From an archaeon (GTDB lineage Archaea; Undinarchaeota; Undinarchaeia; Undinarchaeales; JBDRKL01), in assembly GCA_043814055.1 (NCBI GenBank), contig JBDRKL010000006.1, positions 1,679-65,678 on the forward strand: 64,000 bases of DNA, in the 5' to 3' direction. The notes under the pieces are model-generated. The model had not been told where the DNA came from. It was given only the letters and a program-made list of their open reading frames with translations, and did not search any database. The position numbers and the translations under genes were made by a program. Shown here in pieces: positions 38,821-52,358 of the stretch; position 1 is the stretch's first letter, and the number at the start of each line of letters is the position of its first letter.

Positions 38821-40086
38821 TTATGCTCCCAATGAAACATTATATTCACTCTCTGAAATCGCCTCTCCCACTTCACTGAATTCTTTTCTTGTTTTTTCAA
38901 GCTTGATTTCATCCACTCCAAATCTCTTCTCGTCTTCGCTTATTTTTCCCCTCAGCTCAGAAATCTCTGCCTCTAATTCCTTCTTGCGCTTGGAATACTC
39001 TGAATTCACCAAGTCATTTTTCTTGGCTTTTCTCTGCCCATCACGTTCAGCATGCTGTTTTATAAGAGCATCCAAATTATCCTTCAACCCGTGTTCTATG
39101 GAGATCAGCGCTTTTTCCTTCTCCTTGTCATCCAGCTGTATAGTTCCTTTTTCCAAAGCATCTTTTAATTTTTTAAGAAGTTCGTTCAGGTGCGGCCCCT
39201 CGTGAATTATTTCTCTTGAGTTTGCGATGCAGAGTTCAATATAGTCCATCAATTCTTTTTTCTCAAGCCCCTCCACAGACCTCTTGTATTTTCTAAGCGG
39301 TCTGGTTAATTGACCAATAATGTGGAGTACATTGCGCCCGATGTCCTCTTGTTTGGTCTGAATCTCCATTAGCCCTTTCTCAAGTCCCTCATATGTTACC
39401 TTCTCTTTAGAGGTATAGAGCGCTTGAAGCGCGTCCTCTTTCTTTTTCACGGCGACTTTAAGTTTTTCAATGTTCTTCTGGCGCAATGGTAGATTTGTAT
39501 CCAGTGGGACCATGGCATTTCTCAACTCACCATATCTAGAAAGCATCTCCAGCACTTCCTCATTCTTTTTAATCCCCTCGTTAGCCCCTTTTATCTTGTC
39601 AAGAAATTCATTTGATGCCAGGGACAGGTTTTGGAGGTTATTGCGCAACTCTTCAACTTCCTTGCTGAACCCAAACTTGACAAAGCGGAGGTATGTCTTC
39701 TCCAGTTTGTGTATGGTGTTTATGCAGCTGATAAATCTCCTGCTGGCCTCCACGCAGTCCTCGTAGTTATTCAGACTAAGGTCAAATATGAGGTCTATGT
39801 TGTGCGTAATTCCCTCCACATAGGACTTTTTGCTGTTCTTGAGTGTCTGGGCGAGCGGCTTGTGCATCGCTGGGTCAGGTTGAACAGCATTAACTTTGTC
39901 CGCCTCCTCCTTCAACCTTTCGCCCGTCTCTTTTATTCTATCATAAATTGACCCAAGCTCTGCTAACAGTTCTTCTCTAACCTTTTTATTTTCCTCATTC
40001 AAAAATTCAGTCAGTTCGGCTATGGTGAAAGTTTTGCTCTCCTGCCTCACTGTTTTTTCCTTGCCAAATCTTGAAAAGAATCTCAT
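38821..40086 (-). CDS. Coiled-coil hypothetical protein
   Basis: 421 aa, K/E-rich, 'LTRPLRKYKR' central motif. Confidence 0.7.
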   Translation of the reverse strand: MRFFSRFGKEKTVRQESKTFTIAELTEFLNEENKKVREELLAELGSIYDRIKETGERLKEEADKVNAVQPDPAMHKPLAQTLKNSKKSYVEGITHNIDLIFDLSLNNYEDCVEASRRFISCINTIHKLEKTYLRFVKFGFSKEVEELRNNLQNLSLASNEFLDKIKGANEGIKKNEEVLEMLSRYGELRNAMVPLDTNLPLRQKNIEKLKVAVKKKEDALQALYTSKEKVTYEGLEKGLMEIQTKQEDIGRNVLHIIGQLTRPLRKYKRSVEGLEKKELMDYIELCIANSREIIHEGPHLNELLKKLKDALEKGTIQLDDKEKEKALISIEHGLKDNLDALIKQHAERDGQRKAKKNDLVNSEYSKRKKELEAEISELRGKISEDEKRFGVDEIKLEKTRKEFSEVGEAISESEYNVSLGA

Positions 40087-40300
40087 TTTACTTATGTGTG
40101 CACTGTGGTTGAATTACAATGCGGTGGACGAGCCCCTTAATCGAAAAGGGGCGCATTAGTTACAAGAGTGGTTTAGGTTGAGGCTTTATTTATAAGTTGA
40201 GGCAGTAGTTTAGCGGGGCTGTGGTGTCGCTCTATGTTCCAGAGTACAGGGGTTACAAGGCACAGCAAAACTTAAATACTGCGTAGTACATTTGCAATAC

Positions 40301-40537
40301 ATGGAAAATGAAACTATTCAAGTACGCATGAATGGAACTCTTGTGAAGAAGATAGATGTTTGCGTAAAGCACGGTTTGTTTGACAACCGTTCAGAAGTTG
40401 TCAGGGATGCTGTGAGGCAAATGTTTTCTCCAGAGCTAAAGCCGGAAGTTCTTGCTGAATGCATGAAAATCTCTGAGGGAATGAGAAAAGGCAAGAAGAT
40501 GTCTTTGGAAGATTTAGAGAAAGAGTTATTGGAATGA
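40301..40537 (+). CDS. Ribbon-helix-helix antitoxin
   Basis: TIQVRM…NRSEVVRDAVR; overlaps the relE start (ATGA). Confidence 0.85.
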   Translation: MENETIQVRMNGTLVKKIDVCVKHGLFDNRSEVVRDAVRQMFSPELKPEVLAECMKISEGMRKGKKMSLEDLEKELLE

Positions 40538-40806
40538 GCTATTCTATTTCTTTGTCTGACAAGGCGACCAAGCAATTAAAAAAGCTGAACAAGGCTGTTG
40601 TCCGAAGAATCATAGACAAACTAAAAACACTATCCAGCGAGCCTTATTCAAAAACTCTACCGCTACAGGACTCTGAGTTCAGGCGGCTCAGAATCGGTGA
40701 CTGGAGGATAATTCTTGACATAGCCGACGATTTGAAAGAAGTTTTTGTGGTCCTTGTCGGCAAGCGGGAGAATATTTATGAAGAGCTGGAGCAGAGTGGT
40801 GGTTAA
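40534..40806 (+). CDS. relE: RelE/ParE family toxin
   Basis: YSISLSDKATKQLKKL…RRLRIGDWRII…VGKRENIY. Confidence 0.92.
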   Translation: MSYSISLSDKATKQLKKLNKAVVRRIIDKLKTLSSEPYSKTLPLQDSEFRRLRIGDWRIILDIADDLKEVFVVLVGKRENIYEELEQSGG

Positions 40807-40975
40807 CAAATGCGTGGTAAGGATGATTTTTTAAAAAGACAAAAGAAGATTTTAGAAACTGAGGAGTTTATGGGCTTAGATGATGTTTAAGAAAACATTT
40901 ATTAACATTGAGTGAGATACTTCACCTCTAACATATGGGGCTATGGTGTAACCCTTCTTTGAAAAATTGCAGATA

Positions 40976-42031
40976 TTAAAGAGAACCTGCAGCACCATCG
41001 GCTTTAGGTGCCATTGCTTTTTTGTAATTCTCCTGAAGCTCATATGATAACGTCTGAACCTTATCTTTGGTAATCGCAGAAATCAGCAGGACTTTCTCTT
41101 TCTTTGTCTTGAAAAAAGACAGGATTGCGTCCTGCTGCTCTTGTGACAAAAGGTCAGTTTTGTTGATGACAATCATGCTTGAAACCTTTAAAAGGTCATT
41201 GCTAAACTGCGCCATTTCCTTCTCTAATACCCCTTTTTGCGCCCATAGGTGCTGGGTCAGTTTTTTCCCAGCCAGCTCAAGCACGTCCTCCTCCGGGTAC
41301 AACACATAAACAATCAGCTGGCACCTTTGAAGGTGCTGGAGGAATTGAATCCCAAGACCCTTGCCGAGCGACGCGTCCTCAATCAGGCCAGGGATGTCCG
41401 CTATGACCAGATTGCCCTTCTTGTCATCGGTTTCCATGACCCCCAGGTTTGGTGATAATGTAGTGAAAGGGTAATTCGCAATCTTTGGCTTAGCCTTGGT
41501 CAGGACAGAAAGCAGGGTGCTTTTTCCAGCGTTCGGCAGGCCTGCCAGCCCGATTTGGGCCAAAACCTTGAGTTTCAGCTGCACGCTGATGGGCTTTGTC
41601 TTTTCCCCCTCAGTTGACTCTTTCGGATAGACATTAGTAGATGATCTGAAACACCAATTGCCCGTGCCTCCTTTGCCGCCGCGCGCGAGACAGAACCTCA
41701 TGCCAGGCTTGTCCAAATCCACGATAAGCCTGCCTGTGTCTGCGTTGTAAATCATTGTCCCGACAGGAATCTGGAGCGTTGTGTCCTCTGTCCTCTTGGC
41801 GTAGGCCCTCCCATTTTTGCCATTCGCACCATTTTTCGCAACTATGAGATGTCTGCCAAATAAGTCACTCAGGGTGTTCAGGTTGGTTGTGGTTTCAACA
41901 TAGATGGAGCCGCCTTGACCGCCGTTCCCGCCGTCAGGCCCGCATTTAGGGCGGTTCTTTTCCCTGCGGAAGCCGACCTGGCCATCTCCGCCATTACCTG
42001 CTTTTACAACAAAACTTGCCTCATCTATCAT
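40976..42031 (-). CDS. obgE: Bacterial-type Obg/CgtA GTPase
   Basis: Gly-rich Obg fold (KAGNGGDG…RREK…GPDGGNGGQGG), GLPNAGKS, ANYPFTT, DIPG, NKTD. Confidence 0.95.
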   Translation of the reverse strand: MIDEASFVVKAGNGGDGQVGFRREKNRPKCGPDGGNGGQGGSIYVETTTNLNTLSDLFGRHLIVAKNGANGKNGRAYAKRTEDTTLQIPVGTMIYNADTGRLIVDLDKPGMRFCLARGGKGGTGNWCFRSSTNVYPKESTEGEKTKPISVQLKLKVLAQIGLAGLPNAGKSTLLSVLTKAKPKIANYPFTTLSPNLGVMETDDKKGNLVIADIPGLIEDASLGKGLGIQFLQHLQRCQLIVYVLYPEEDVLELAGKKLTQHLWAQKGVLEKEMAQFSNDLLKVSSMIVINKTDLLSQEQQDAILSFFKTKKEKVLLISAITKDKVQTLSYELQENYKKAMAPKADGAAGSL

Positions 42032-42105
42032 ATTATGATTCCACTTAAACGATGCGGGGTGTAGTATTTAATCTTATCTGGCAGTGTCCGGCCTTAATTG
42101 AGGCT

Positions 42106-43206
42106 CTAGTAATCAACTTCTCTCGTCCTGTATTTTCTTATTTCTCTTCCTTGTTTTGCAGTGTCCTTCCATTTGGTTTTCTCTGCCCGTCTGACCATAT
42201 TCTTTTGTTTAATTGCGAGAACTTCAACTTCCTGTTTCAGTTTCAAATAATGTGCATATCGGCGGGGGTCAAGCTTTCCGGTATCAAGCGCTTCCTTGAC
42301 TGCACAGTCCGGTGCATTTTCATGGTTGCAGTCTGTGAATTTACACTGTTGGATAATCTCCTCAACATCTCTAAACATCTCACTAATACCCTCGCCTTTG
42401 GACCATAGTTGCATTTCCCTCACTCCAGGATTGTCTATAATCATCCCGCCTTTTGGCATCATAAACAGCTCACGATAGGCTGTAATGTGCCTTCCGTGAC
42501 CGTCGGTTTCCCTAACTTCTCCCACTTCCTGTCGGTCTACTCCGAGAAGCTGATTAAGAATCGTTGACTTGCCCACGCCTGATGACCCGAGAATAGCTAT
42601 GGTTTTCCCCTCTTCTAAATATTGGTCAAGCGCATCCAATCCTTGATTTAGTTTCGCGCTCAAGATATGCACTGGAGCATTTTGAGCTATCTTTTTCACT
42701 TCCTCACCTCTTTCCTCTGGGTTATCACAAAGGTCAGATTTATTCAATATTACAACTGGTTTTGACTTGCTCTCTGATACCAAAGTAAGATATCTTTCAA
42801 TTCTTTGGATGTTGAACTCATTATCAAGGCCTGCAACAATCCAAACCATATCCACATTTGCGACTAGGATTTGTTCTTCTGTAGTTACCCCAGCAACTTT
42901 TCTGGAGAATTTGTTCCGCCTTGGAAGAACTGTTTTAATGGTTCCTTCCTCGTTCGCAACCCCTTTCTTAATCGCTACCCAGTCGCCAACAACCGGATAA
43001 GCCCCTTTCTCAGTGGCATCAAATCTGAATTTCCCTGAAACTTTAACTTCGGTTTCCCCTGTTTCAGTGAGTGCAATGTAACCCTTTCGCTGGACTTTAA
43101 TTATGCGCCCTGGCACAAGTCCGTTCAGTTGGTATGGACTAAAGCTCTCTTCAAAGAATGAATCCCAGCCAATTTTTTTAAGGTCTATTTTAGCGGTGGT
43201 CATCAT
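42106..43206 (-). CDS. rsgA: Ribosome small subunit-dependent GTPase A (circularly permuted)
   Basis: VVGDWV, ANVD, NKSD, GSSGVGKST, GRH, DNPG, CKFTDCNHENAPDC zinc finger. Confidence 0.95.
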   Translation of the reverse strand: MMTTAKIDLKKIGWDSFFEESFSPYQLNGLVPGRIIKVQRKGYIALTETGETEVKVSGKFRFDATEKGAYPVVGDWVAIKKGVANEEGTIKTVLPRRNKFSRKVAGVTTEEQILVANVDMVWIVAGLDNEFNIQRIERYLTLVSESKSKPVVILNKSDLCDNPEERGEEVKKIAQNAPVHILSAKLNQGLDALDQYLEEGKTIAILGSSGVGKSTILNQLLGVDRQEVGEVRETDGHGRHITAYRELFMMPKGGMIIDNPGVREMQLWSKGEGISEMFRDVEEIIQQCKFTDCNHENAPDCAVKEALDTGKLDPRRYAHYLKLKQEVEVLAIKQKNMVRRAEKTKWKDTAKQGREIRKYRTREVDY

Positions 43207-43334
43207 GTTTCACCATTCTTTTTTTCATAACAATAATTAATGAGTTCTACTACTTCAATTCTTCTCCTCTGCCCCTCCGATGTATTTGGGTTACGAGGTA
43301 GGACTCATTTTTTGAATATTGGCTTAGGGCTACA

Positions 43335-44384
43335 CTATACCCAGCCCTTTCTCCTGAAATACATAAACATTGAGATGCCTATCATAGATACCAATACCCA
43401 CAATAGCGGGTAAGACCACTTCCAATGAAGCTCCGGCATGAAATCAAAGTTCATCCCGTACATCCCAGCCACAAATGTCAGCGGTATAAATATGGATGCG
43501 AATATGGTAAGCACTTTCATCACTTCATTCATCTTGTTGCTTATTGTTGAGAGGTAAAAATCAAGCAGTCCAGAAACCATGTCCCTGTATGACTCAATAG
43601 TGTCTATGACTTGTATGGTGTGCTCGTAGAGATCCCTGAGATAGGCCTCAGTTGATTTCTTCACAAGCTTTGATTCTGCGCGCTGAAGATTGCTTATCAC
43701 TTCCCTGAGCGGCCAGACAGACTTGCGGAGCTCTATGAGCTCGCGCTTCATGCTGTATACGTTGTTTAAAACCTCGCTTGTTGGGTTGTCAAGTATGTTC
43801 TGCTCCAGCGATTCTATTTTGTCCCCCACCTTCTCAAGCAGAATAAAGTAATTGTCCACGATGGCGTCCATCAGGGCGTAGGCGAGGTAATCGCTGCCCA
43901 TCTTTCTTATGCGTCCTTTTCCGCTTCGTATCCTCTGCCTAACAGGGTCAAACACATCGCCCTCGTGCTCCTGGAATGAAATAACAAAATTCTTGCCAAG
44001 CACGATGCTCACTTGCTCATTGCTAATCTCGTGTTTTTTCTCGTCAAATTGGAGCATCTTCAGAGCCATGAAAATGTAGGAGTCAAAGTCCTCAAACTTG
44101 GGCCTCTGGTGCGTGTTTGCGATATCCTCAAGAACTAGCGGATGCACATCAAAATGTTTGCCAAGTTTTTCAAGAATTTCCACGTTGTGAACGCCTGTAA
44201 CATTCATCCACGTTACAGTTGGCTTTTTCTTGAACGGGAAGCAGTCCTCTACTTTACTGGCGGGTTTCTCCTCAAGATTTGTTTCTTTGTAATCAATTAT
44301 GTCTATCTTGACTTCAGCTTCCTTCTCTTTCCCAACATACACAACTGACCCTGGGGACATCCCAGGCTTTTTAGTTTTTGCCAT
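43335..44384 (-). CDS. corA: Second CorA Mg2+/Co2+ transporter
   Basis: HPLVLED, QRPK, AGMYGMNF, MPEL; start MAKTKKPG at 44384. Confidence 0.95.
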   Translation of the reverse strand: MAKTKKPGMSPGSVVYVGKEKEAEVKIDIIDYKETNLEEKPASKVEDCFPFKKKPTVTWMNVTGVHNVEILEKLGKHFDVHPLVLEDIANTHQRPKFEDFDSYIFMALKMLQFDEKKHEISNEQVSIVLGKNFVISFQEHEGDVFDPVRQRIRSGKGRIRKMGSDYLAYALMDAIVDNYFILLEKVGDKIESLEQNILDNPTSEVLNNVYSMKRELIELRKSVWPLREVISNLQRAESKLVKKSTEAYLRDLYEHTIQVIDTIESYRDMVSGLLDFYLSTISNKMNEVMKVLTIFASIFIPLTFVAGMYGMNFDFMPELHWKWSYPLLWVLVSMIGISMFMYFRRKGWV

Positions 44385-44711
44385 CTCCAAGCTTGGTACT
44401 CTGAGTTGGTTTATAAAAGTATGTTTGCCTGCTTTACAAAAGTTTATTACGCCGGCAAACTCCGGCGGCACGTTTGGCTGCATTCGCTCACTTTGTTCGC
44501 GAAACAGCCATATTTAGATTTTTGAAAACCTTTATTAATCTTGGATTAGATACTTCATTCTTACAATTGGTTACTGAATGTCCCACAGCCCGCCGTCAAA
44601 TAAATAACGGGGCTATGGTGCAACCTACCTTCTCTGCGGTGGTACACAACGCGAATTTTGCAAAGATATTTAATCAGATATTCTCCAACGTTTATTTTCT
44701 CACTAGAACAG

Positions 44712-45335
44712 TTATACACAATCGCAATACTTGCTAGCGCCTAGGTCTGTATGAAAAACTGTGCCAGTTGGGCATTCACATGTAGCAACTATGTATATGC
44801 CTACGACTGTAGGGTTATCAATACTCGCTGGTTTGCTGGGATCATTCAACTCGCCGCATCTTGCATTTGTCACGCAGGCATCTGGTTGCACATGATTGTT
44901 ATTATTGTCAGCAGCAGAATTCACAGGCAGATAGTATGTTCTGCACGCAGACCTCCCGCTAACATCCTTTACACAGACTTGGAAATTGCCGCCTGTTCCT
45001 GTTGGTGTGCCCTTCAATACACCATCAATGCCAAGAATAAGTCCCATTGGTGGAAATCCAACCCCTGAGCCGAGATAGAAAGTATAGGGGCCATTATTTC
45101 CTTGAGGGTCCAGAGAAGAAATCATATCATGAGAAAAATCAAGGCTGTATGGAACGCCTATAGTTGCTGGATAATCATTAAGTTTCCAAACTAAATCACC
45201 ACCAATGTGAGGAAGCTTGATGAATCCTGCCTGCGATCCTATCACTATACCAAATATAACTACAATAAGTATCCCAGGAATCCATGGGCTTTTTATAAGG
45301 CTTGGTTTTGATTTTGCTGGTTGTGTTTTTGCCAT
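44712..45335 (-). CDS. Membrane-anchored protein with a putative Ig domain and Cys-rich C-terminus
   Basis: N-terminal TM; 'GPYTF…GFPPMGLILGIDGVLKGTPT…FQVCVKD' He_PIG-like; C-terminal cysteines. Confidence 0.75.
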   Translation of the reverse strand: MAKTQPAKSKPSLIKSPWIPGILIVVIFGIVIGSQAGFIKLPHIGGDLVWKLNDYPATIGVPYSLDFSHDMISSLDPQGNNGPYTFYLGSGVGFPPMGLILGIDGVLKGTPTGTGGNFQVCVKDVSGRSACRTYYLPVNSAADNNNNHVQPDACVTNARCGELNDPSKPASIDNPTVVGIYIVATCECPTGTVFHTDLGASKYCDCV

Positions 45336-45668
45336 CTATAAGCTTGGTAATTTCTGTTGGTTTATAAAACTATGCTCAAAGTAAAATTAGGCTTAAGGAT
45401 AGTCGTATGACTTCTTCACAGACGTTTCTTTCTGCACTCCAAACATTTATTAATCTCGGATTAGATTACTCTCTGTTAACATTGGGGCTATGGTAAAACA
45501 CAGACCTTCCAATTGGTTACTGTGTTAACCACAGCCACTGTTAAATAATTGGGGCTATGGTGTAACCTTCTAAGCCAGGGTAGTGGGGTTTAAGGGTAGG
45601 GCTCACCACGCGATTTTGGCAAAATTTGAACTTTAACTTCGGTCAGAATGGTGGCTAGGAACTTAATA

Positions 45669-46703
45669 CTACATTAATCCAAATATGAACCCTGCTGTTG
45701 TTGAAAATACAATCACAAGTCCGATATACACAAGCGTTTGTTTATTGCCAAGTATTTTTCTTATTACGAGCATGTTCGGCAGGCTGAGGCTTGGACCGGC
45801 CAGTAACAAGGCTAGTGCAGGGCCTTTGCCCATCCCCAGTTTCATCAATTCTCCGATGATTGGAACTTCAGTTAGCGTAGCGAAGTACATGAGAGCTCCG
45901 AAGATTGAAGCGACAAAATTAGATGTTAGACTGTTACCTCCAAGGTATGCTTGGACTATCTCTTGGGGGAGCAGAACCTGTATCATGCCAGCTATGAACA
46001 CGCCAATTAATAGATAGGGCACTATCAGTTTTGTAATGCTCCAAGTTTCCTTTAACCAGTTGAGGTTATCCTGCTTAGTGAATTTTAATTTTAGTAAAAT
46101 CAATAGGAAAATAAGCAGCATACTAAAGCCCATTAATTTCAAAGTAAAACCGATTTGAAGCCCGTTAACAATCAATATTCCTACAAGGAGTGCAAAAAAT
46201 GACAAAACTGTAGTTTTTGATTTCTCGTGCCCCACAGGGGCAGAGAACACATCCCCTTTATTTTTTGTTTTTCTTTGGAACAAAAAGTGCATTATCAGTC
46301 CGATTACAATCGACAGTGAGATGGCAGCAACAGCCCTCGCAACCCCTAACTCAAAACCAAGTACATTTGCAGTGTAGATTATAGCGAGCAGGTTAATCGC
46401 AGGACCTGAGAAAAGAAACGTTATCGCAGGGCCTAGGCCTGCCCCCCTTTCTTTTATGCCCGCGAATAAGGGAAGGATTGTACAGGAGCAGACCGCAAGT
46501 ATTGCCCCGGAAACTGCAGCAACAGAGTAGGAAACGTGCTTTTTGGCATTAGGTCCAAGATACTTGAGAACAGATTCTTTTTTTAGGAAAACTGCAATTG
46601 CCCCTGCTATGAAAAATGCAGGGATGAGGCAGGTTATGACGTGGGCTGACAGGTATTCAGTTAGAGCAGTAGTTCCGGCAAAAACCAGCTCAGTTAGAAT
46701 CAC
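45669..46703 (-). CDS. ArsP-like permease (DUF318)
   Basis: CLIPAFFIAGAI, AVCSCTILPLF, GPAINLLA, YFATLTEVP, GPSLSLP. Confidence 0.88.
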   Translation of the reverse strand: MILTELVFAGTTALTEYLSAHVITCLIPAFFIAGAIAVFLKKESVLKYLGPNAKKHVSYSVAAVSGAILAVCSCTILPLFAGIKERGAGLGPAITFLFSGPAINLLAIIYTANVLGFELGVARAVAAISLSIVIGLIMHFLFQRKTKNKGDVFSAPVGHEKSKTTVLSFFALLVGILIVNGLQIGFTLKLMGFSMLLIFLLILLKLKFTKQDNLNWLKETWSITKLIVPYLLIGVFIAGMIQVLLPQEIVQAYLGGNSLTSNFVASIFGALMYFATLTEVPIIGELMKLGMGKGPALALLLAGPSLSLPNMLVIRKILGNKQTLVYIGLVIVFSTTAGFIFGLM

Positions 46704-46927
46704 TTAATCCACCCCTTTATTTCATCCACTGTAGGAATTCTGCCCTGTGCCTTTACTTCACCATCAATAACAATCGCAGGAGTCATCGTGACTCTTTCTA
46801 TTATTTTTGTGATGTCTGTGACCTTTTCTATCTCAACATTAACATCCAGTTCGCTTGCCGCCTGCTTGGCGTTTTCTTCGAGCTGTTTGCATTTGGTGCA
46901 GCCCGACCCAAGTATTTCTATTTTCAT
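46700..46927 (-). CDS. Small redox-active thioredoxin-like protein (MTH895/ArsE-like)
   Basis: MKIEILGSGCTKC…TPAIVIDGEVKAQGRIP. Confidence 0.9.
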   Translation of the reverse strand: MKIEILGSGCTKCKQLEENAKQAASELDVNVEIEKVTDITKIIERVTMTPAIVIDGEVKAQGRIPTVDEIKGWIK

Positions 46928-46941
46928 TTTTTATACTCCAT

Positions 46942-47652
46942 TTATATGTTTATTAATAGGGTATAGTAAACCCCTACGAAAATGAACACGACTGAGACTA
47001 TTCTCCGCATCCACTTGTCAAAAACCTGAACTTTGTCCATTATAACAGCGAGTTTCGAGACGCTGTACGTAAGCACGAACGAAACTATAATAACAGGCAG
47101 GCCAGTTCCAAGGGCAAATAATATAGGGATTAGCACACCATCACCTGTCGCCAGCGCGAGCGGTATGAGCATCCCAAAGAACAGCACTGCGCTGAACGGA
47201 CAGAACGCCATAGCAAAAATTACCCCGAGCAGGAAGCACCCCAGTAGCCCCTTGCTGAACAATTTCTCCTTCAGCAGATTGATACTCTCACTTCCTCTGA
47301 GGTTAGGGAGTTTAATCAAACCAGTCATTAGCACGCCTATAAGAATTAAGAAAGGTCCAAGTGCAGCTTCTCCATAGCGCTGGAGAAACAATGATACAGA
47401 CTGGGAACTTAGTCCTGCCCATACTATAAGTGACGCGATAGAGACATACGTAAGTGCCCTTCCAGTTGTATAAACCACTCCGGCGAGAAGAGTCCATCTT
47501 TTCTCACCAAGACGCTTGGATATGGCTGCTATCGCGGTGATATTCGTCGCCATTGGACAGGGACTTAGCGCAGTCATTAGTCCTATGAAAAAAGCCGCTA
47601 TTATGGCGATTTCGCTTGTACCCATTGCTTCCATGAAAGTCATTAATGTCAT
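46942..47652 (-). CDS. ArsG-like (DsbD/CcdA-fold) membrane protein
   Basis: SPCPMATN and AFCPFSA Cys motifs in TM helices. Confidence 0.8.
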   Translation of the reverse strand: MTLMTFMEAMGTSEIAIIAAFFIGLMTALSPCPMATNITAIAAISKRLGEKRWTLLAGVVYTTGRALTYVSIASLIVWAGLSSQSVSLFLQRYGEAALGPFLILIGVLMTGLIKLPNLRGSESINLLKEKLFSKGLLGCFLLGVIFAMAFCPFSAVLFFGMLIPLALATGDGVLIPILFALGTGLPVIIVSFVLTYSVSKLAVIMDKVQVFDKWMRRIVSVVFIFVGVYYTLLINI

Positions 47653-48149
47653 TCTAATTCACCTGCCAATTTTTGTTCAATTACACTCTTGAGATAGTTC
47701 ATGTAATCTGCCTTGTCGTTTATCTTATACCAGACGTTGGTGTTCTGCTCGGCATGAAAACCGTTCTCGTCATAGACACCAATCCATAATGAAGAGCCTG
47801 TTGCGCCGTACTTTTCTGCAAGCGCCGCATTCTCCGAAAGCTGGACGTTTACATGTCCGAATACTACTTTACCTGATTTCACCTCGTCGGCAAAGTACGT
47901 GTTGACAGTCTCTTCGGCGTATGCCCCAACAGTAATGCAGGAATAACATTGACGCGTCCCGTGGAAATGATATACTTCGATTTTTTCTACATTAGATGGG
48001 GGCAATTGGATTTTGGCTGTTTCTCCAGCAGTATCATTAACGCCAACATCAGAATCCGTTTTACCGTCGCCCACGCAACCAGAGCTAATCACTATTACTA
48101 CAAGTAAAACAAGAAGCACACCAAGCGGCTTAGCACTCATTTTTGTCAC
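47649..48149 (-). CDS. ArsF-like thioredoxin-fold lipoprotein
   Basis: Lipobox SSGC; YHFHGTRQCYSC. Confidence 0.75.
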   Translation of the reverse strand: MTKMSAKPLGVLLVLLVVIVISSGCVGDGKTDSDVGVNDTAGETAKIQLPPSNVEKIEVYHFHGTRQCYSCITVGAYAEETVNTYFADEVKSGKVVFGHVNVQLSENAALAEKYGATGSSLWIGVYDENGFHAEQNTNVWYKINDKADYMNYLKSVIEQKLAGELE

Positions 48150-48438
48150 TTCTCCTGCAAAGGCCTTTTACAGTTTTGCGCTTCGTGTAGCCAAGTGCCT
48201 TGAGTACATTGCAAACCCTAAAGTCGTTTATCTTGTAAAGTATTTTCTTGCCGTCTCTCCGTGATTCGAGGATGCCACAGTTCTCTAATTTTCCCAAGTG
48301 GATGGAAACTGTTGATTGTTTCCTCCTTGTGTGTGGGATTATTTCGCAGACACACTTTTCGCCGTCTAGGAGAAACTCGACGATTTTCAGCCTTGTTTCA
48401 TCTGCAAGGGCCTTTAGGATTTTGAGAGATTCCTTCAT
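48130..48438 (-). CDS. arsR: ArsR/SmtB transcriptional repressor
   Basis: KALADETRLKI, EKCVCEI, QSTVSIHL. Confidence 0.93.
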   Translation of the reverse strand: MKESLKILKALADETRLKIVEFLLDGEKCVCEIIPHTRRKQSTVSIHLGKLENCGILESRRDGKKILYKINDFRVCNVLKALGYTKRKTVKGLCRRSDKNEC

Positions 48439-48766
48439 AAAACATATTGACAAGTATCAATATATAAAGTTTTTCTAGCCCACTTCCCCTCCTCCAAACC
48501 TTTATTAATCTCTAACTAGATTACATGTATCTGCACTGTGTAACCCGGGAGCAAAGGTTTAAATACAATGAATGCGCTTTTCTCGAAACCGGTAAGCTAA
48601 GGTGCAAAAACATAAATTGGGGCTATGGTGTAAACCACGTCTAATGGTACTGTACACCACGCGAATTTTGCCAAGAATTGGACTGTAGCTCGGTTCACTT
48701 ACTGGCTTAGGGACTTAAGATTTTAGGTGAAAAACATTATAAAGAACCTTGTTTTAATTTTATCAT

Positions 48767-49261
48767 ATGAAAATACTTGTTTTCTTACACGGAACATCGA
48801 TTATGCATAAAAATGCCGAAGGACATAATCCAGAAGAGATAGCCAAACAAGTAATAGAGGGCGAGGAATCGGTTACAGATTATAGCTCATACATCCCGGT
48901 TGGAAACGCTGTTGAAAAACTTAAAACTTGGGAAACTCAAGGGGCAAAAATTTTGTATTTTAGTTCTCATAAAAAGTTCGAAGATGTTGAACAAGATAAA
49001 GCTGTTCTAAAAAGGCAGGGGTTCCCCAAAGGTTTGGTATATTATCGTAAAAATGATGAAGAATATCATACTGTTGTGGAGCGAATAAAACCAGATATAC
49101 TAGTAGAGGATGATGCCAAGTCCATTGGTGGGGATATGATTTCACCAACATTAAATCCAAAACTTGGAATAAAAATAATTGTTGTTAAAGAATTTGCTGG
49201 GATCGACAACCTTCCTGACGAGATTTCTGTTTTATCAAAAAATCATTCCCAAGCGACTTAG
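48767..49261 (+). CDS. HAD-like hypothetical protein
   Basis: KILVFLHGT…ILYFSS…ILVEDD degenerate HAD layout; AT-rich; own TATA (TTATAAA) upstream. Confidence 0.65.
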   Translation: MKILVFLHGTSIMHKNAEGHNPEEIAKQVIEGEESVTDYSSYIPVGNAVEKLKTWETQGAKILYFSSHKKFEDVEQDKAVLKRQGFPKGLVYYRKNDEEYHTVVERIKPDILVEDDAKSIGGDMISPTLNPKLGIKIIVVKEFAGIDNLPDEISVLSKNHSQAT

Positions 49262-49307
49262 GGGCAGTCCTACAGCTGACGCGCGGACTTTTCTTTCTCT
49301 CGTTTAC

Positions 49308-49350
49308 AAACCTTTATTAATCTCGAATTAGATTACTCTCTGCTAACATC
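49308..49350 (+). promoter_or_regulatory. tRNA-Trp promoter (BRE/TATA)
   Basis: AAACC-TTTATTAA roughly 30-40 nt upstream of the tRNA; the block is repeated four more times upstream. Confidence 0.8.
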
Positions 49351-49619
49351 GGGGCTATGGTGTAACCTGGGAGCATAAGTGGCTCCAGTCAGCCGAGAAA
49401 TCGGCTGGCGCTTTGTGCTGCATTCGGCTTCGCCGAAACAGCACGGCTCGCACGAACCCGCAACAGCGGGTTGTGCAACACGCTTCGCGTGTTTGCACGC
49501 TCGCGCGTGCTCGCTTGGGCGCCAAGATTGGAGCTTTGACCCTTCGGGGGATGATAAAGTACAAAGCTCACAGTGGTAGAAACCACTAGGCCAGGGTTCA
49601 AATCCCTGTGGCCCCACCA
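49351..49619 (+). tRNA. tRNA-Trp(CCA) with a 193-nt intron at 37/38 (49389-49581); 3' CCA encoded
   Basis: Acceptor GGGGCTA/TGGCCCC; anticodon arm AGTGG-CT-CCA-G|A-CCACT; T arm CAGGG-TTCAAAT-CCCTG; ACCA end. Confidence 0.95.
49528..49555 (+). ncRNA. Intronic box C'/D' guide for Cm34 of tRNA-Trp
   Basis: TGGAGC is complementary to GCUCCA; D' TTGA at 49536-49539 places the +5 nt opposite C34; CCC-TTCG-GGG; C' GGGATGA. Confidence 0.7.
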
Positions 49620-49642
49620 CAACCTTTTTTAAAAAAAGGTTG
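49620..49642 (+). terminator. Palindromic oligo-T terminator after tRNA-Trp
   Basis: CAACCTTTTTT-A-AAAAAAGGTTG. Confidence 0.65.
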
Positions 49643-49697
49643 ATCAAAAATCAGGGGCGTTCACTCACTTCGTTCATGAAGCCCCACTCTTATTCAT

Positions 49698-52358
49698 ATG
49701 GATCATAAAAAAATCGAAGCCAAATGGCAGAAAGCCTGGGCTGAGAAAAAGGCCTTCCAAGTAAAAGAAGACCCCAAAAAAGAAAAATTCTATGTTCTTG
49801 AGATGTTTTCCTATCCCAGCGGCAAGGCGCACATGGGTCACGTTCGCAATTACTCAATCGGCGACGCATACGCCCGCTACAAGCGAATGAGCGGCTTCAA
49901 CGTGCTTTACCCAATGGGGTTTGACGCTTTCGGCCTCCCTGCAGAAAACGCAGCCATCCAGAACAAGACGCATCCCAAAACCTGGACCGAGCAGAGTATG
50001 GCGGACATGACCAAGCAGTTCAAAGCGCTTGGATTAAGCTATGACTGGGACCGCTCAGTTGTAACTTGCTACCCTGAATACTACAAGTGGAACCAACTCA
50101 TTTTCCTCAAAATGCTTGAGCGCGGTCTCGCATACCGCAAAGCTTCGCCTATAAATTGGTGCCCGAAGTGCAACACGGTCCTGGCAAATGAGCAAGTTGA
50201 AAATGGCAAGTGCTGGCGCTGCAAGGCAGCAGTTGAGCTGAAAAATCTTGAGCAGTGGCTGCTCAAAATCACAGATTACGCTGACGAACTTTTGGAATCA
50301 ATCGACGGGCTTGAATGGCCTGAGCAGGTTAAGACAATGCAGAGGAACTGGATTGGCAAAAGTTCAGGAACTGTGTTCAAGTTCAAAGTGAAGGACGTTG
50401 ACTTAACGCTTGAGACCTACACAACCAGACCGGACACAATGTTCGGCATAACTTTCCTTGTCCTCCCGCCGGAAAGTCCGCATATTGAAACGCTTGTGAA
50501 GGACACAAAGCACGAGGAAGAAGTGATGGAGTTCGTGAAGAAAGCTGTGAAAGTCTCTGCAATGGACCGCACAGACGAGACAAAACCAAAGAACGGCGTG
50601 TACACAGGAAGGAATTTCATAGACCCAATTTCAAAAGAAGAATATCCGATTTACGTTACTGACTATGTCATAGCTGACTATGGAACCGGAGTTGTAATTG
50701 GAGTTCCGGCGCACGACCAGCGTGATTTTGAATTTGCAAAGAAGTATGACATCCCAATTAAAGTGGTTATAACGCCTGAAAACCACGTGCTAGAAGCTGA
50801 TAAAATGACTCGGGCATTCATTGAAGAGGGCGTTTTGGTCAACTCAGGCGAGTTCGACGGCTGGAACAACCGCGAGGCAATGGATGCAATTTCAGAATGG
50901 GCCACAAAGCAGGGCTTTGCATACAAGTCAACGCAGTACAAACTCCGCGACTGGCTCATTTCAAGGCAGAGATACTGGGGAACCCCAATTCCAATCATAT
51001 ACTGCGACAAGTGCGGCGCAGTTCCTGTGCCTGAAAAGGATTTGCCAGTGAAGCTTCCTGAGGATGTTAAATTCACAGGCAAAGGAAATCCAATGCTCAC
51101 TTCAGACGCATTCGTGAACACAACCTGTCCAAAATGCAAAGGCAAGGCAAAGCGCGAAACCGATACTATGGACACGTTCATTGACAGCACGTGGTATTTC
51201 TACCGCTACTGCAGTCCTAAATTTGACAAAGGACCTTTTGACCCCAAGGCAGTTGAATACTGGCTCCCTGTTGACCAATACATCGGCGGAATTGAGCACG
51301 CAGTGATGCATTTGCTCTACGCGCGCTTCTGGACCAAAGCTTTGCGCGATTTGGGCTTCTGCAAAATTGACGAGCCTTTCAAGCGCCTGCTGTGCCAGGG
51401 AATGGTAATAAAAGACGGGGCAAAGATGAGCAAGAGCTTTGGTAACACAGTTGACCCGAATGAAATAATTGAGAAATACGGCGCGGACACTGCGCGCTGT
51501 TTTATCCTCTTCGCCGCTCTGCCTGAGAAGGAATTAGACTGGAGCGACCAGGGAGTTTTTGCAGTGCACAAATTCCTTTCCAAAGTCCACACGCTCTTTG
51601 AAACCGCAGAGTTCAAGAGCGGCAAAATCAACGTGAAGAAACTGCGCAGCAAGGACTTGTATGTGCTCTCCAGGGTGCATTCAACTGTGAAAAAGGTCAC
51701 AGAATGCATGGAATCCTTCCAAATGAACATAGCGCTTACAAGCGTGCTCAGTTTGGTCAATGACATCACTAAGTACAGCAAAGATTCGAATAAAGAAGTG
51801 ATGTACGAAGCACTCACAAACACCGCGCTGATGCTTTCCCCATTCGCGCCGCACCTTGCAGAAGAAATGTGGGCAAAGCTTGGTGAAAAAGATTTAGTTT
51901 CACTTGCAAAGTGGCCAAAGCCGAACAAGGATTACTTGGATGAGGTGATGGAGCTCGGCGAGCGCGTTGTGCAGGACACGTTCTCAGATGTGCGTGAAGT
52001 AATTAAGCTTATTGAGAAAGACCCTGCGATAATCACATTATTCATCGCACCGGAGTGGAAGTATGAAGTTTACAAAGGCGTTAAAGCTGGGAAAGAAATC
52101 AAGGACTTTATGGCTGATGCAAAGCTTAAGCCGTTCGGGAAAGAAATCGTTGGATATGTGCAGAAGCTTTTGAAAAAGAAGCACGAGCTCGCTGAGAAAA
52201 CGCTAAGCAGGGCGCAAGAACTGCAGTTCTTTGAAGAGTCAAAAGCCCAGCTTGAGGAAGAATTGAAATGCACAGTTCAAGTTGTGAAGGCTGAGGATTC
52301 AGATGAGCCAAAAGCAAAGAGCGCAGATGTAATGAAACCAGGAGTGTTTGTTGAGTGA
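49698..52358 (+). CDS. leuS: Leucyl-tRNA synthetase (bacterial-type core)
   Basis: MFSYPSG-HMGH, GFDAFGLPAENAAI, TTRPDT editing motif, VPAHDQRD, DWLISRQRYWG, KMSKS. Confidence 0.97.
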   Translation: MDHKKIEAKWQKAWAEKKAFQVKEDPKKEKFYVLEMFSYPSGKAHMGHVRNYSIGDAYARYKRMSGFNVLYPMGFDAFGLPAENAAIQNKTHPKTWTEQSMADMTKQFKALGLSYDWDRSVVTCYPEYYKWNQLIFLKMLERGLAYRKASPINWCPKCNTVLANEQVENGKCWRCKAAVELKNLEQWLLKITDYADELLESIDGLEWPEQVKTMQRNWIGKSSGTVFKFKVKDVDLTLETYTTRPDTMFGITFLVLPPESPHIETLVKDTKHEEEVMEFVKKAVKVSAMDRTDETKPKNGVYTGRNFIDPISKEEYPIYVTDYVIADYGTGVVIGVPAHDQRDFEFAKKYDIPIKVVITPENHVLEADKMTRAFIEEGVLVNSGEFDGWNNREAMDAISEWATKQGFAYKSTQYKLRDWLISRQRYWGTPIPIIYCDKCGAVPVPEKDLPVKLPEDVKFTGKGNPMLTSDAFVNTTCPKCKGKAKRETDTMDTFIDSTWYFYRYCSPKFDKGPFDPKAVEYWLPVDQYIGGIEHAVMHLLYARFWTKALRDLGFCKIDEPFKRLLCQGMVIKDGAKMSKSFGNTVDPNEIIEKYGADTARCFILFAALPEKELDWSDQGVFAVHKFLSKVHTLFETAEFKSGKINVKKLRSKDLYVLSRVHSTVKKVTECMESFQMNIALTSVLSLVNDITKYSKDSNKEVMYEALTNTALMLSPFAPHLAEEMWAKLGEKDLVSLAKWPKPNKDYLDEVMELGERVVQDTFSDVREVIKLIEKDPAIITLFIAPEWKYEVYKGVKAGKEIKDFMADAKLKPFGKEIVGYVQKLLKKKHELAEKTLSRAQELQFFEESKAQLEEELKCTVQVVKAEDSDEPKAKSADVMKPGVFVE

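What the first reader, a model, noticed from the sequence alone, without database searches (positions are those of the whole stretch)
44374..45374. Two unrelated cargo genes share the same promoter and first codons
Seen: corA (start 44384) and the Ig-domain gene (start 45335) share a 50-bp block, 43/50 identical (44374-44423 vs 45325-45374). It covers a TTTTATAAA TATA box, the short leader and ATG GCA AAA AC (both proteins begin MAKT). In each case it lies divergently, ~70-100 bp from the duplicated tRNA promoter. Inference: the cassette scaffold includes a built-in expression module into which different ORFs are captured, which points to a gene-capture mechanism rather than random insertion.
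Basis: partly seen in the sequence, partly recalled or inferred. Interest (0 to 1): 0.72.

Follow-up and report, generated by a model that had tools for sequence, protein, structure and literature searches.

The report
Cargo gene borrowed its neighbour's promoter
In a tiny archaeal genome, two unrelated neighbouring genes begin with near-identical copies of one 50-base promoter-and-start block, most likely because a single insertion placed an incoming gene behind a magnesium-transporter gene's old promoter and brought the transporter a replacement copy, not because a reusable expression module exists.

Summary
The block is real: 43/50 identical, with no third copy in the genome (next best 30/50) or in 16 related genomes. 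It spans a TATA box, a predicted near-leaderless start and codons 1-4 of corA and an Ig-domain membrane-protein gene. It is the left end of a duplicated, mosaic junction of about 300 bp, which also holds a tRNA-Trp promoter copy, a hairpin insert and a tRNA 5' fragment. Only 2 of 5 junctions carry it, and a comparable array in another family lacks it, so one fusion event explains it; a built-in module is not supported. Most likely corA is the resident gene and the Ig gene was joined in frame to corA's old start at a shared ATGGCAAAA-type microhomology, while the incoming DNA restored corA's promoter. The reverse direction remains open (about 0.25). The same footprint (gene start duplicated around cargo) occurs at two other loci here; the scan had noted this kind of footprint on other DNA of this genome, but not this block. 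No integrase was found in the 82%-complete genome. Verdict: a neat, single promoter capture, a variant of known gene-end-replacement insertions; moderate interest.

The parts
44374..44423 (-). Block copy in front of corA: TATA box TTTATAAA (44410-44417), spacer, ATG at 44384 and codons 1-4; under the best explanation the replacement (incoming) copy
45325..45374 (-). Block copy in front of the Ig-domain gene: TATA box (45361-45368), ATG at 45335, codons 1-4; under the best explanation corA's old promoter and start
   Evidence: role inferred
43335..44384 (-). corA, magnesium/cobalt transporter, 349 aa, intact; N-terminal tail about 5 residues shorter than most homologues; GC3 0.57 (65th percentile of 621 genes, host-like)
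44712..45335 (-). Ig-domain protein gene, 207 aa, with a basic N-terminus, one hydrophobic stretch and a Cys-rich tail; 95 homologues, those named being from Patescibacteria and archaea; GC3 0.32 (2nd percentile, foreign-like)
44433..44517 (.). Partial copy of the tRNA promoter TATA region (44433-44449) followed by a two-hairpin repeat (about 44451-44517) also found near several tRNA genes of the genome
44524..44666 (+). Junction J1: tRNA-Trp promoter copy (44524-44557), remnant of a hairpin insert shared with J2 (44560-44608), tRNA 5' fragment (44609-44625), downstream motif (44645-44666)
45421..45625 (+). Junction J2: 77-nt copy (86%) of the tRNA-Trp upstream region and first 11 nt (45421-45494), hairpin insert (45495-45528) with an inverted copy of the tRNA start, second tRNA 5' fragment (45551-45567), downstream motif (45604-45625)
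40891..40958 (+). Junction J0: tRNA promoter copy and 5' fragment; no block
48492..48720 (+). Junction J3: tRNA promoter copy, degenerate and intact 5' fragments (48619), downstream motif (48655); no block
49286..49619 (+). The intact, intron-containing tRNA-Trp gene (49351-49619) with its promoter (junction J4); no block
   Evidence: (aragorn with introns)
40976..43206 (-). Other cargo left of corA: ObgE-family GTPase and RsgA-like GTPase; own upstream regions, no block
45669..48453 (-). ArsR regulator, ArsF-family, DsbD_2, thioredoxin-like and ArsP_1 permease genes; no block
48767..49261 (+). 164-aa cargo gene next to the tRNA; own TATA, no block

Best explanation
The two 50-base copies share one ancestor, and they likely record a single insertion in which incoming DNA carrying the Ig gene was joined in frame to corA's old promoter and first codons while the same DNA likely supplied corA with a second, diverged copy of that promoter and start. 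Steps. (1, shown) The block and the junction next to it (tRNA promoter copy, hairpin insert, tRNA 5' fragment, motif) stand twice, on both sides of the Ig gene body. (2, inferred) The two junctions are alleles from two related lineages: J2 the recipient's, J1 the donor's, in which the Ig gene was the next cassette beside corA. (3, inferred) The donor piece was anchored by homologous recombination in corA and joined at its other end at a short microhomology, because both genes began ATGGCAAAA (one-sided, homology-facilitated recombination; a single crossover of a circularised piece would leave the same footprint). (4, inferred) Because the mRNA is nearly leaderless, promoter and start codon are one unit, so capturing this promoter brings the first codons along; this is why both proteins begin MAKT. 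(5, inferred) Both copies are still used, since the mismatches avoid the TATA box and the codons.
For: Only two copies exist in the genome. Among 1,594,384 pairs of start regions, with the 24 windows of an unrelated hairpin family removed, this is the best pair of unrelated genes; the next is 35/50. J1 and J2 alone share a 67-nt, 78% identical hairpin-insert segment. The same footprint occurs at C7:36215 (DUF357 start, 59 nt at 95%, around a nucleotidyltransferase-HEPN pair) and C13:31817 (AMMECR1 promoter and start, 99 nt at 86%, the upstream copy fused in frame to a copy of the end of a SecD/SecF-domain gene); in both, the downstream copy starts the full-length conserved gene, which here is corA. 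corA has host-like GC3 and the Ig gene does not (65th vs 2nd percentile). The only TTATAAACCAAY in G002 lies in front of its CorA homologue, which also has a short tail (MEKPTKNP). Native Ig-family genes can start with the same letters: 3 of 28 homologue starts share 8-9 leading nt with corA, and L052 matches our Ig gene in register over 22 nt except codon 4. A 3-10 bp microhomology is typical of such joints (PMC3240628, passages).
Against: No close relative exists to show the state before the event: no same-family genome, nearest proteins 67% (CorA) and about 54% (Ig), so the order of events is not shown. 0 of 119 near CorA homologues begin MAKT and only 3 of 119 have a tail as short, whereas 10 of 95 Ig homologues begin MAK; this fits the reverse direction equally or better. 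The G002 and G006 CorA proteins do not group with ours in the best tree, although a common clade is not rejected (p-AU 0.21). G006's corA promoter lacks CCAAC, and TTATAAACCAAY occurs 10 times in 16 other genomes against 5 control hits, so the G002 match may be chance. The Ig codon-usage score is unremarkable (25th percentile). J1 is a mosaic (it shares a 10-nt trait with J0), so more than one exchange touched it. Homology-facilitated illegitimate recombination usually deletes about as much as it inserts, which is not evident here.
Confidence: 0.5

Rival explanations
1. Same single event, reverse direction: the block is the Ig gene's own promoter and start; the Ig cassette end was duplicated, and the left copy was fused by deletion to corA near its codon 7-10, replacing corA's longer N-terminal tail.
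For: MAK starts: 10 of 95 Ig homologues vs 1 of 119 near CorA homologues; MAKT 2 vs 0. 79 of 119 near CorA homologues are 5 residues longer. Ig homologues occur as tandem paralogues with duplicated start regions (L036, L043, L044). A search with CorA residues 1-45 found no other protein.
Against: It needs a duplication plus a replacement, and no Ig remnant was found elsewhere in the genome. No block-like sequence lies upstream of 39 Ig homologue starts read (40 of 59 loci given, one without an ATG), and none in 132 loci scanned (best non-self 31/50); all are distant. MAK starts are commoner among distant CorAs (7 of 150). GC3 marks the Ig gene as the newcomer.
Confidence: 0.25
2. One reading: the block is a standing part of a cassette scaffold, and a dedicated, integrase-independent process repeatedly fuses different ORFs behind it.
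For: Both copies sit at the same place relative to a tRNA-promoter copy. The array of tRNA-Trp 5' repeats, with the same downstream motif, recurs in G006 of another family. Ig homologues elsewhere often lie near tRNA genes or tRNA-end fragments.
Against: Only two ORFs, which one fusion explains. The block is absent from 3 of 5 junctions, from 11 other genes tested, from the G006 array, from 16 relatives and from viral contigs (exact pattern).
Confidence: 0.12
3. The two-hairpin repeat at 44451-44517 drove the event: a small element of this genome that duplicates gene ends carried the Ig gene along and regenerated corA's start.
For: Hairpin inserts flanked by duplicated gene or tRNA ends are common here, and one lies 27 nt from the corA copy.
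Against: The sequence duplicated around this hairpin is the tRNA promoter's TATA region (15/17), not the block. The other hairpin-type duplications span 89-145 nt and carry no genes. J2 has no such element beside its block.
Confidence: 0.08
4. Convergence: a generic TATA box plus a common MAK start.
For: TTTATAAA occurs 98 times in the genome and MAK is the second commonest start (32 of 1811 candidate starts). The 12-mer TTATAAACCAAY precedes an ORF in 6 of its 10 occurrences in relatives.
Against: 43/50 against a background that ends at 30/50 genome-wide and 35/50 among aligned starts of unrelated genes; a shared 10-nt spacer run; shared flanking junction sequence.
Confidence: 0.03

Closest known systems
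Homology-facilitated illegitimate recombination (HFIR) and single-crossover integration of recircularised DNA (PMC3240628, passages read)
   Same: One homologous end and one short-microhomology joint insert foreign genes without an integrase; the single-crossover route leaves a partial duplication of the target gene.
   Different: Described in bacteria; HFIR usually deletes a similar length. Here the process is inferred from anatomy in an uncultured archaeon, and the joint puts the cargo in frame under the target's promoter.
dusA-associated genomic islands (PMC4482086, passages read)
   Same: Insertion into the 5' end of a gene, with a replacement 5' end and promoter supplied by the incoming DNA and the old 5' end left behind.
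   Different: Those islands encode a dedicated integrase. Here none was found, the insert is under 1 kb, and the old start drives the cargo gene.
tRNA-targeted genomic islands and their tandem arrays (Islander, PMC4383910, passages read)
   Same: The surrounding array is marked by displaced tRNA fragments; 5' fragments are the rare class (159 of 3919 islands).
   Different: Islander tandems have an integrase per member and cross over at anticodon or T-arm subsites. Here the fragments are the first 11-17 nt plus promoter, and no member encodes an integrase.
Mobile-ORF gene hybrids of fungal mitochondria (PMC3630166, passages read)
   Same: [quoted passage not shown]
   Different: Those are 3' ends and the ORF is a homing endonuclease. 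Here it is a 5' end and the ORF is an Ig-domain protein.
Integron cassette arrays (10.1101/2023.11.21.568050, start of abstract in the listing)
   Same: An array of unrelated cargo genes separated by repeated sites.
   Different: Integron cassettes are generally promoterless and rely on one platform promoter. Here cargo genes have their own promoters, most face away from the tRNA promoter copies, and no tyrosine recombinase was found.

Membership tests
   2 of 5 junctions; 11 other genes at most 25/50; G006 array best 30/50
   No third copy in 17 genomes, 132 loci or viral contigs, but no close relative was available and metagenome contigs were not scanned with the block itself
Generic archaeal promoter | Similar block before many unrelated genes | tested here: not met
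   Two copies only; next best 30/50. Only the TATA core recurs
HFIR / one-sided recombination product | 3-10 bp microhomology at the illegitimate joint | tested here: inconclusive
   11 nt shared at the start; native Ig starts share 8-9 nt with corA in 3 of 28 loci; the true donor is not available
HFIR / one-sided recombination product | Homologous anchor on the other side (donor tract running into corA) | tested here: inconclusive
   GC3 along corA 0.48-0.64 in six bins, no clear step; needs sister strains
HFIR / one-sided recombination product | DNA uptake and recombinase dependence | not testable with these tools
   One partial PF02481 (DprA-type) hit, 65 of 212 positions, just over cut-off; RadA and uptake genes were not searched
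dusA-type or tRNA-targeted integrase islands | Replacement 5' end supplied, old end displaced | tested here: met
   Duplicated promoter and start around the Ig gene; duplicated tRNA promoter and 5' end
dusA-type or tRNA-targeted integrase islands | Integrase gene inside the insert | tested here: not met
   No recombinase family among the cargo proteins; no PF00589 or PF00239 match in G000 (genome 82% complete)
Integron | IntI tyrosine recombinase | tested here: not met
   No PF00589 match in G000 or G006, 7 of 17 phylum genomes have one; both genomes about 81-82% complete
Integron | attC hairpin sites between cassettes | tested here: inconclusive
   Junction folds are not better than shuffles except the two-hairpin repeat (z -2.4) and the J2 hairpin (z -1.6); no attC model was run
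Integron | Promoterless cassettes read from one platform promoter | tested here: not met
   corA, the Ig gene, arsR and the 164-aa gene each have a TATA-like box upstream; most cargo is on the strand opposite the tRNA promoter copies
Mobile-ORF gene hybrids | Inserted ORF is a homing endonuclease | tested here: not met
   Only a weak Ig-domain hit, no NCBIfam hit
Casposon / IS200-IS605 HUH elements | Cas1 or Y1 transposase in the genome | tested here: not met
   0 of 5 genomes for PF01867 and PF01797; genomes incomplete

The most novel reading that the evidence does not exclude
This small-genome archaeal lineage gains genes by an integrase-free route that targets gene starts (tRNA 5' ends and start codons), always brings a replacement start, and routinely uses the displaced promoter and start codon to switch on the incoming gene in frame. 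The corA/Ig block would be the first caught case of a general promoter-donation step, and close relatives would show other ORFs behind the same block.
Probability: 0.15. Interest if true: 0.72.

Novelty: new variant of a known kind. Interest (0 to 1): 0.38.

Why it matters
Horizontally acquired genes need a host promoter. This locus shows a plausible shortcut in an archaeon with near-leaderless mRNAs: a joint made at two similar start codons expresses the newcomer at once, and the resident gene loses nothing. With two more such footprints in the same genome and a recurring tRNA-Trp array in another family, it points to gene gain without a detectable integrase. As a single, undirected event it is a good example rather than a new system.

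Tried and rejected
Sequencing runs: none was listed for 40800-50000, so no reads were laid; strain variants, expression and start sites could not be examined. Rfam: nothing above gathering scores in 40000-50000. ARAGORN without intron search missed the tRNA; with introns it found tRNA-Trp. DNA search of 40 relatives with 44300-45700 gave only short matches at E 2e-4 or weaker, none to the block. My first reading (block native to the Ig gene) was demoted. The quick tree's sister group for our CorA (P0108) was not stable in the second tree (44 rows: 41 of the 120 proteins plus three from relatives). The motif pattern required at least one spacer base and so could not match the G006 copy found; it is no evidence of absence. 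Two G006 start windows were off by one base; I rely instead. A 9-nt and an 8-nt further match between the corA and Ig starts was not tested and is not used. An assembly artefact was considered and judged unlikely because the copies differ at 14% of sites within one 90-kb contig; no reads were available to confirm. Nine paper searches listed no description of this arrangement in archaea; I saw listings and abstract starts only, except for passages of five papers, and no supplements.

Full report
Observation. The two stretches match at 43 of 50 positions without gaps. On the minus strand the block reads upstream flank, TATA box, 20-nt spacer, ATG and eight more coding bases. The window lies on contig C6 of a 979,685-base, 82%-complete genome with no same-family relative among 40 searched. 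It looks archaeal by its promoters and tRNA introns; the phylum holds 17 genomes. Genome-wide the next-best ungapped match is 28/50 and 30/50 for the two copies. Among 1,594,384 pairs of ATG-aligned start regions (1787 windows, after removing 24 that belong to an unrelated hairpin family), only a pair of paralogues scores higher, and the next unrelated pair scores 35. The hairpin family itself reaches 45/50 between different genes, so shared start regions are not unique in this genome, but that family is a different sequence. The mismatches avoid the TATA run and the codons.

The promoter. The first T of TTTATAAA is 33 nt before the ATG, inside the genome's peak of 30-35 nt (70 of 179 distances). 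With the box centred at -27/-28 as measured in haloarchaea (PMC2151090, passages), transcription would start 1-4 nt before the ATG. This is a prediction. It explains why a captured promoter would come with the first codons.

Context. An intron-containing tRNA-Trp lies at 49351-49619. Four upstream junctions repeat its promoter and first 11-17 nt: J0 (40891), J1 (44524), J2 (45437) and J3 (48492). Between them lie obgE, an rsgA-like gene and corA; the Ig gene; a five-gene ArsR/ArsP cluster; and a 164-aa gene. Three junctions continue into a shared motif found nowhere else in the genome apart from one 4-mismatch hit. G006, of another family, has the same tRNA-Trp/leuS neighbourhood with repeated promoter copies, one 5' fragment and the same motif, but other cargo; G002 and G010 have no 5' fragment. 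No tyrosine or serine recombinase, Cas1 or Y1 transposase was found in G000.

Is the block a scaffold part? It is at J1 and J2 only. Eleven other genes in and beside the array score at most 25/50 even with shifting. A 23-base pattern with up to 3 mismatches finds only the two copies in 17 genomes, and the exact pattern finds nothing in viral contigs. All 132 loci then held give at best 31/50 outside the self matches, and the G006, G002 and G010 tRNA-Trp regions give 30, 31 and 28. J1 and J2 also share a 67-nt segment at 78% derived from a hairpin insert; J3 matches only its last 19 nt. So block plus junction, about 300 bp and patchy, is a direct repeat around the Ig gene body. Two ORFs behind one block need one fusion. 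Close relatives, where a third ORF might appear, were not available.

The same footprint elsewhere. A scan of 1811 candidate starts for a copy within 3 kb upstream gave 21 rows, nine of which I opened. Four are short duplications around 89-145-nt inserts; three are paralogues or the hairpin family; two carry genes. At C7:36215 a 59-nt copy of a DUF357 start stands 1108 nt upstream, around a nucleotidyltransferase and a HEPN gene. At C13:31817 a 99-nt copy (86%) of the AMMECR1 promoter and first codons stands 1573 nt upstream and is fused in frame to a 103-nt copy of the end of the neighbouring SecD/SecF-domain gene, giving a 49-aa chimera. In both, the downstream copy starts the full-length conserved gene. 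Here the downstream copy starts corA.

Direction. For corA as resident: the analogy above; GC3 at the 65th percentile for corA and the 2nd for the Ig gene among 621 genes; and G002, whose only TTATAAACCAAY lies 17 nt before a CorA homologue beginning MEKPTKNP. Against: that homologue has an internal stop and does not group with ours in the best tree, though a clade is not rejected (p-AU 0.21); its congener G006 has a different sequence after the TATA box; the 12-mer occurs 10 times in 16 other genomes against 5 control hits; in G000, 1 of the 52 other TTATAAA sites with a nearby ATG continues CCAA. For the Ig gene as owner: 10 of 95 homologues begin MAK and 2 MAKT, against 1 and 0 of 119 near CorAs; 79 of 119 near CorAs are five residues longer and 3 are as short; among 150 distant CorA representatives 7 begin MAK. 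The two lines can be reconciled: if both genes began ATGGCAAAA, that is the microhomology for an in-frame joint. Three of 28 Ig homologue starts (some loci are duplicates) share 8-9 leading bases with corA, and L052 matches our Ig gene over 22 nt except codon 4. One one-sided recombination event then yields the whole arrangement, while the reverse order needs a duplication and a replacement. I put 0.5 on corA as resident and 0.25 on the reverse.

Comparison with what is known. The footprint works like HFIR or single-crossover integration (PMC3240628, passages), dusA islands that replace a gene's 5' end and promoter (PMC4482086, passages) and mitochondrial mobile-ORF hybrids (PMC3630166, passages). 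It fails membership of the integrase- and endonuclease-based classes because no such enzyme was found, with the caveat of an incomplete genome. The tRNA array resembles Islander tandems, where 5' fragments are rare (159 of 3919; PMC4383910, passages), but lacks integrases. It is not an integron by the tests run. Nine searches of the held library listed no report of this arrangement in archaea; supplements and subscription papers were not seen. The scan had no look-alike of this stretch but had noted start and tRNA-end duplications elsewhere in this genome and the array itself.

Verdict. Observation confirmed; interpretation partly supported. It is a single in-frame promoter capture within a duplicated junction, a new variant of gene-end-replacement insertion. 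Interest 0.38. The bolder reading, routine promoter donation by an integrase-free gene-gain route, has about 0.15 probability and would deserve about 0.72.

Noticed in passing
window 40891-49619; L026:12492-15702 (G006): The tRNA-Trp 5'-anchored cargo array recurs in G006 of another family with different cargo (B12 radical SAM, S-layer-like) and the same motif after the 5' fragment; in G006 the motif pairs with the fragment as a hairpin, though not better than shuffles.
   Followed up: partly
G000, about 14 tRNA genes on C1, C3, C9, C10, C12: Short copies of tRNA 5' ends 88-189 nt upstream or 3' ends 176-331 nt downstream, around palindromic inserts.
   Followed up: partly
window 45485-45541; G000 C10:117060-117110 and C10:18620-18750: A hairpin insert is flanked by an inverted copy of the adjoining tRNA end at tRNA-Trp, tRNA-Ser and tRNA-Cys, extending the stem.
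   Followed up: partly
G000, e.g. C2:2941, C4:45001, C11:9215, C12:97318: A hairpin TTCAAAGC...CTTTGAAA with a Shine-Dalgarno-like loop ends on the ATG of at least 17 unrelated genes; 0 exact matches in four relatives. The scan had noted this family.
   Followed up: partly
L149:322-2567 (G000 C13:29600-31900): Accordion between a SecD/SecF-domain gene and AMMECR1: three copies of the former's end, two of the latter's promoter and start, two GNAT paralogues and a 49-aa chimeric ORF.
   Followed up: yes
L148:1601-3133 (G000 C7:35100-36630): The DUF357 gene has both its start (59 nt) and its end (87 nt, 82%) duplicated; a nucleotidyltransferase-HEPN pair lies between the two starts.
   Followed up: partly
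G000 C6:71555-76835 (outside the window): Six tandem regulator-like paralogues at about 40% protein identity with near-identical 5' ends (232 nt at 95%), suggesting gene conversion; next to a PrgI-like gene at C6:67605 (labels recalled, not from a call).
   Followed up: no
window 40976-43206: Bacterial-type ObgE (above NCBIfam cut-off) and an RsgA-like GTPase are cargo in this archaeal array.
   Followed up: no
L022, L023, L059-L061: Ig-family genes in other archaea are preceded by what look like reverse-strand tRNA 3'-end fragments and flanked by short repeats.
   Followed up: no
window 48680-48717; G000 C4:131467-131504: The sequence after the J3 motif has an 87% copy on C4 between two transporter-like genes, with no tRNA-Trp fragment seen there.
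   Followed up: partly
L026:10870-10915 (G006): Two back-to-back TTATAAACCAAY sites form an inverted repeat between two divergent genes, a likely bidirectional promoter.
   Followed up: no
L098 / L139 (G002 C9:14500-15540): The G002 corA homologue has one internal TGA; it and the G006 homologue sit between a small ribosomal-protein-like gene and a Nop5/fibrillarin-like pair (labels recalled), where G000 has no corA.
   Followed up: partly
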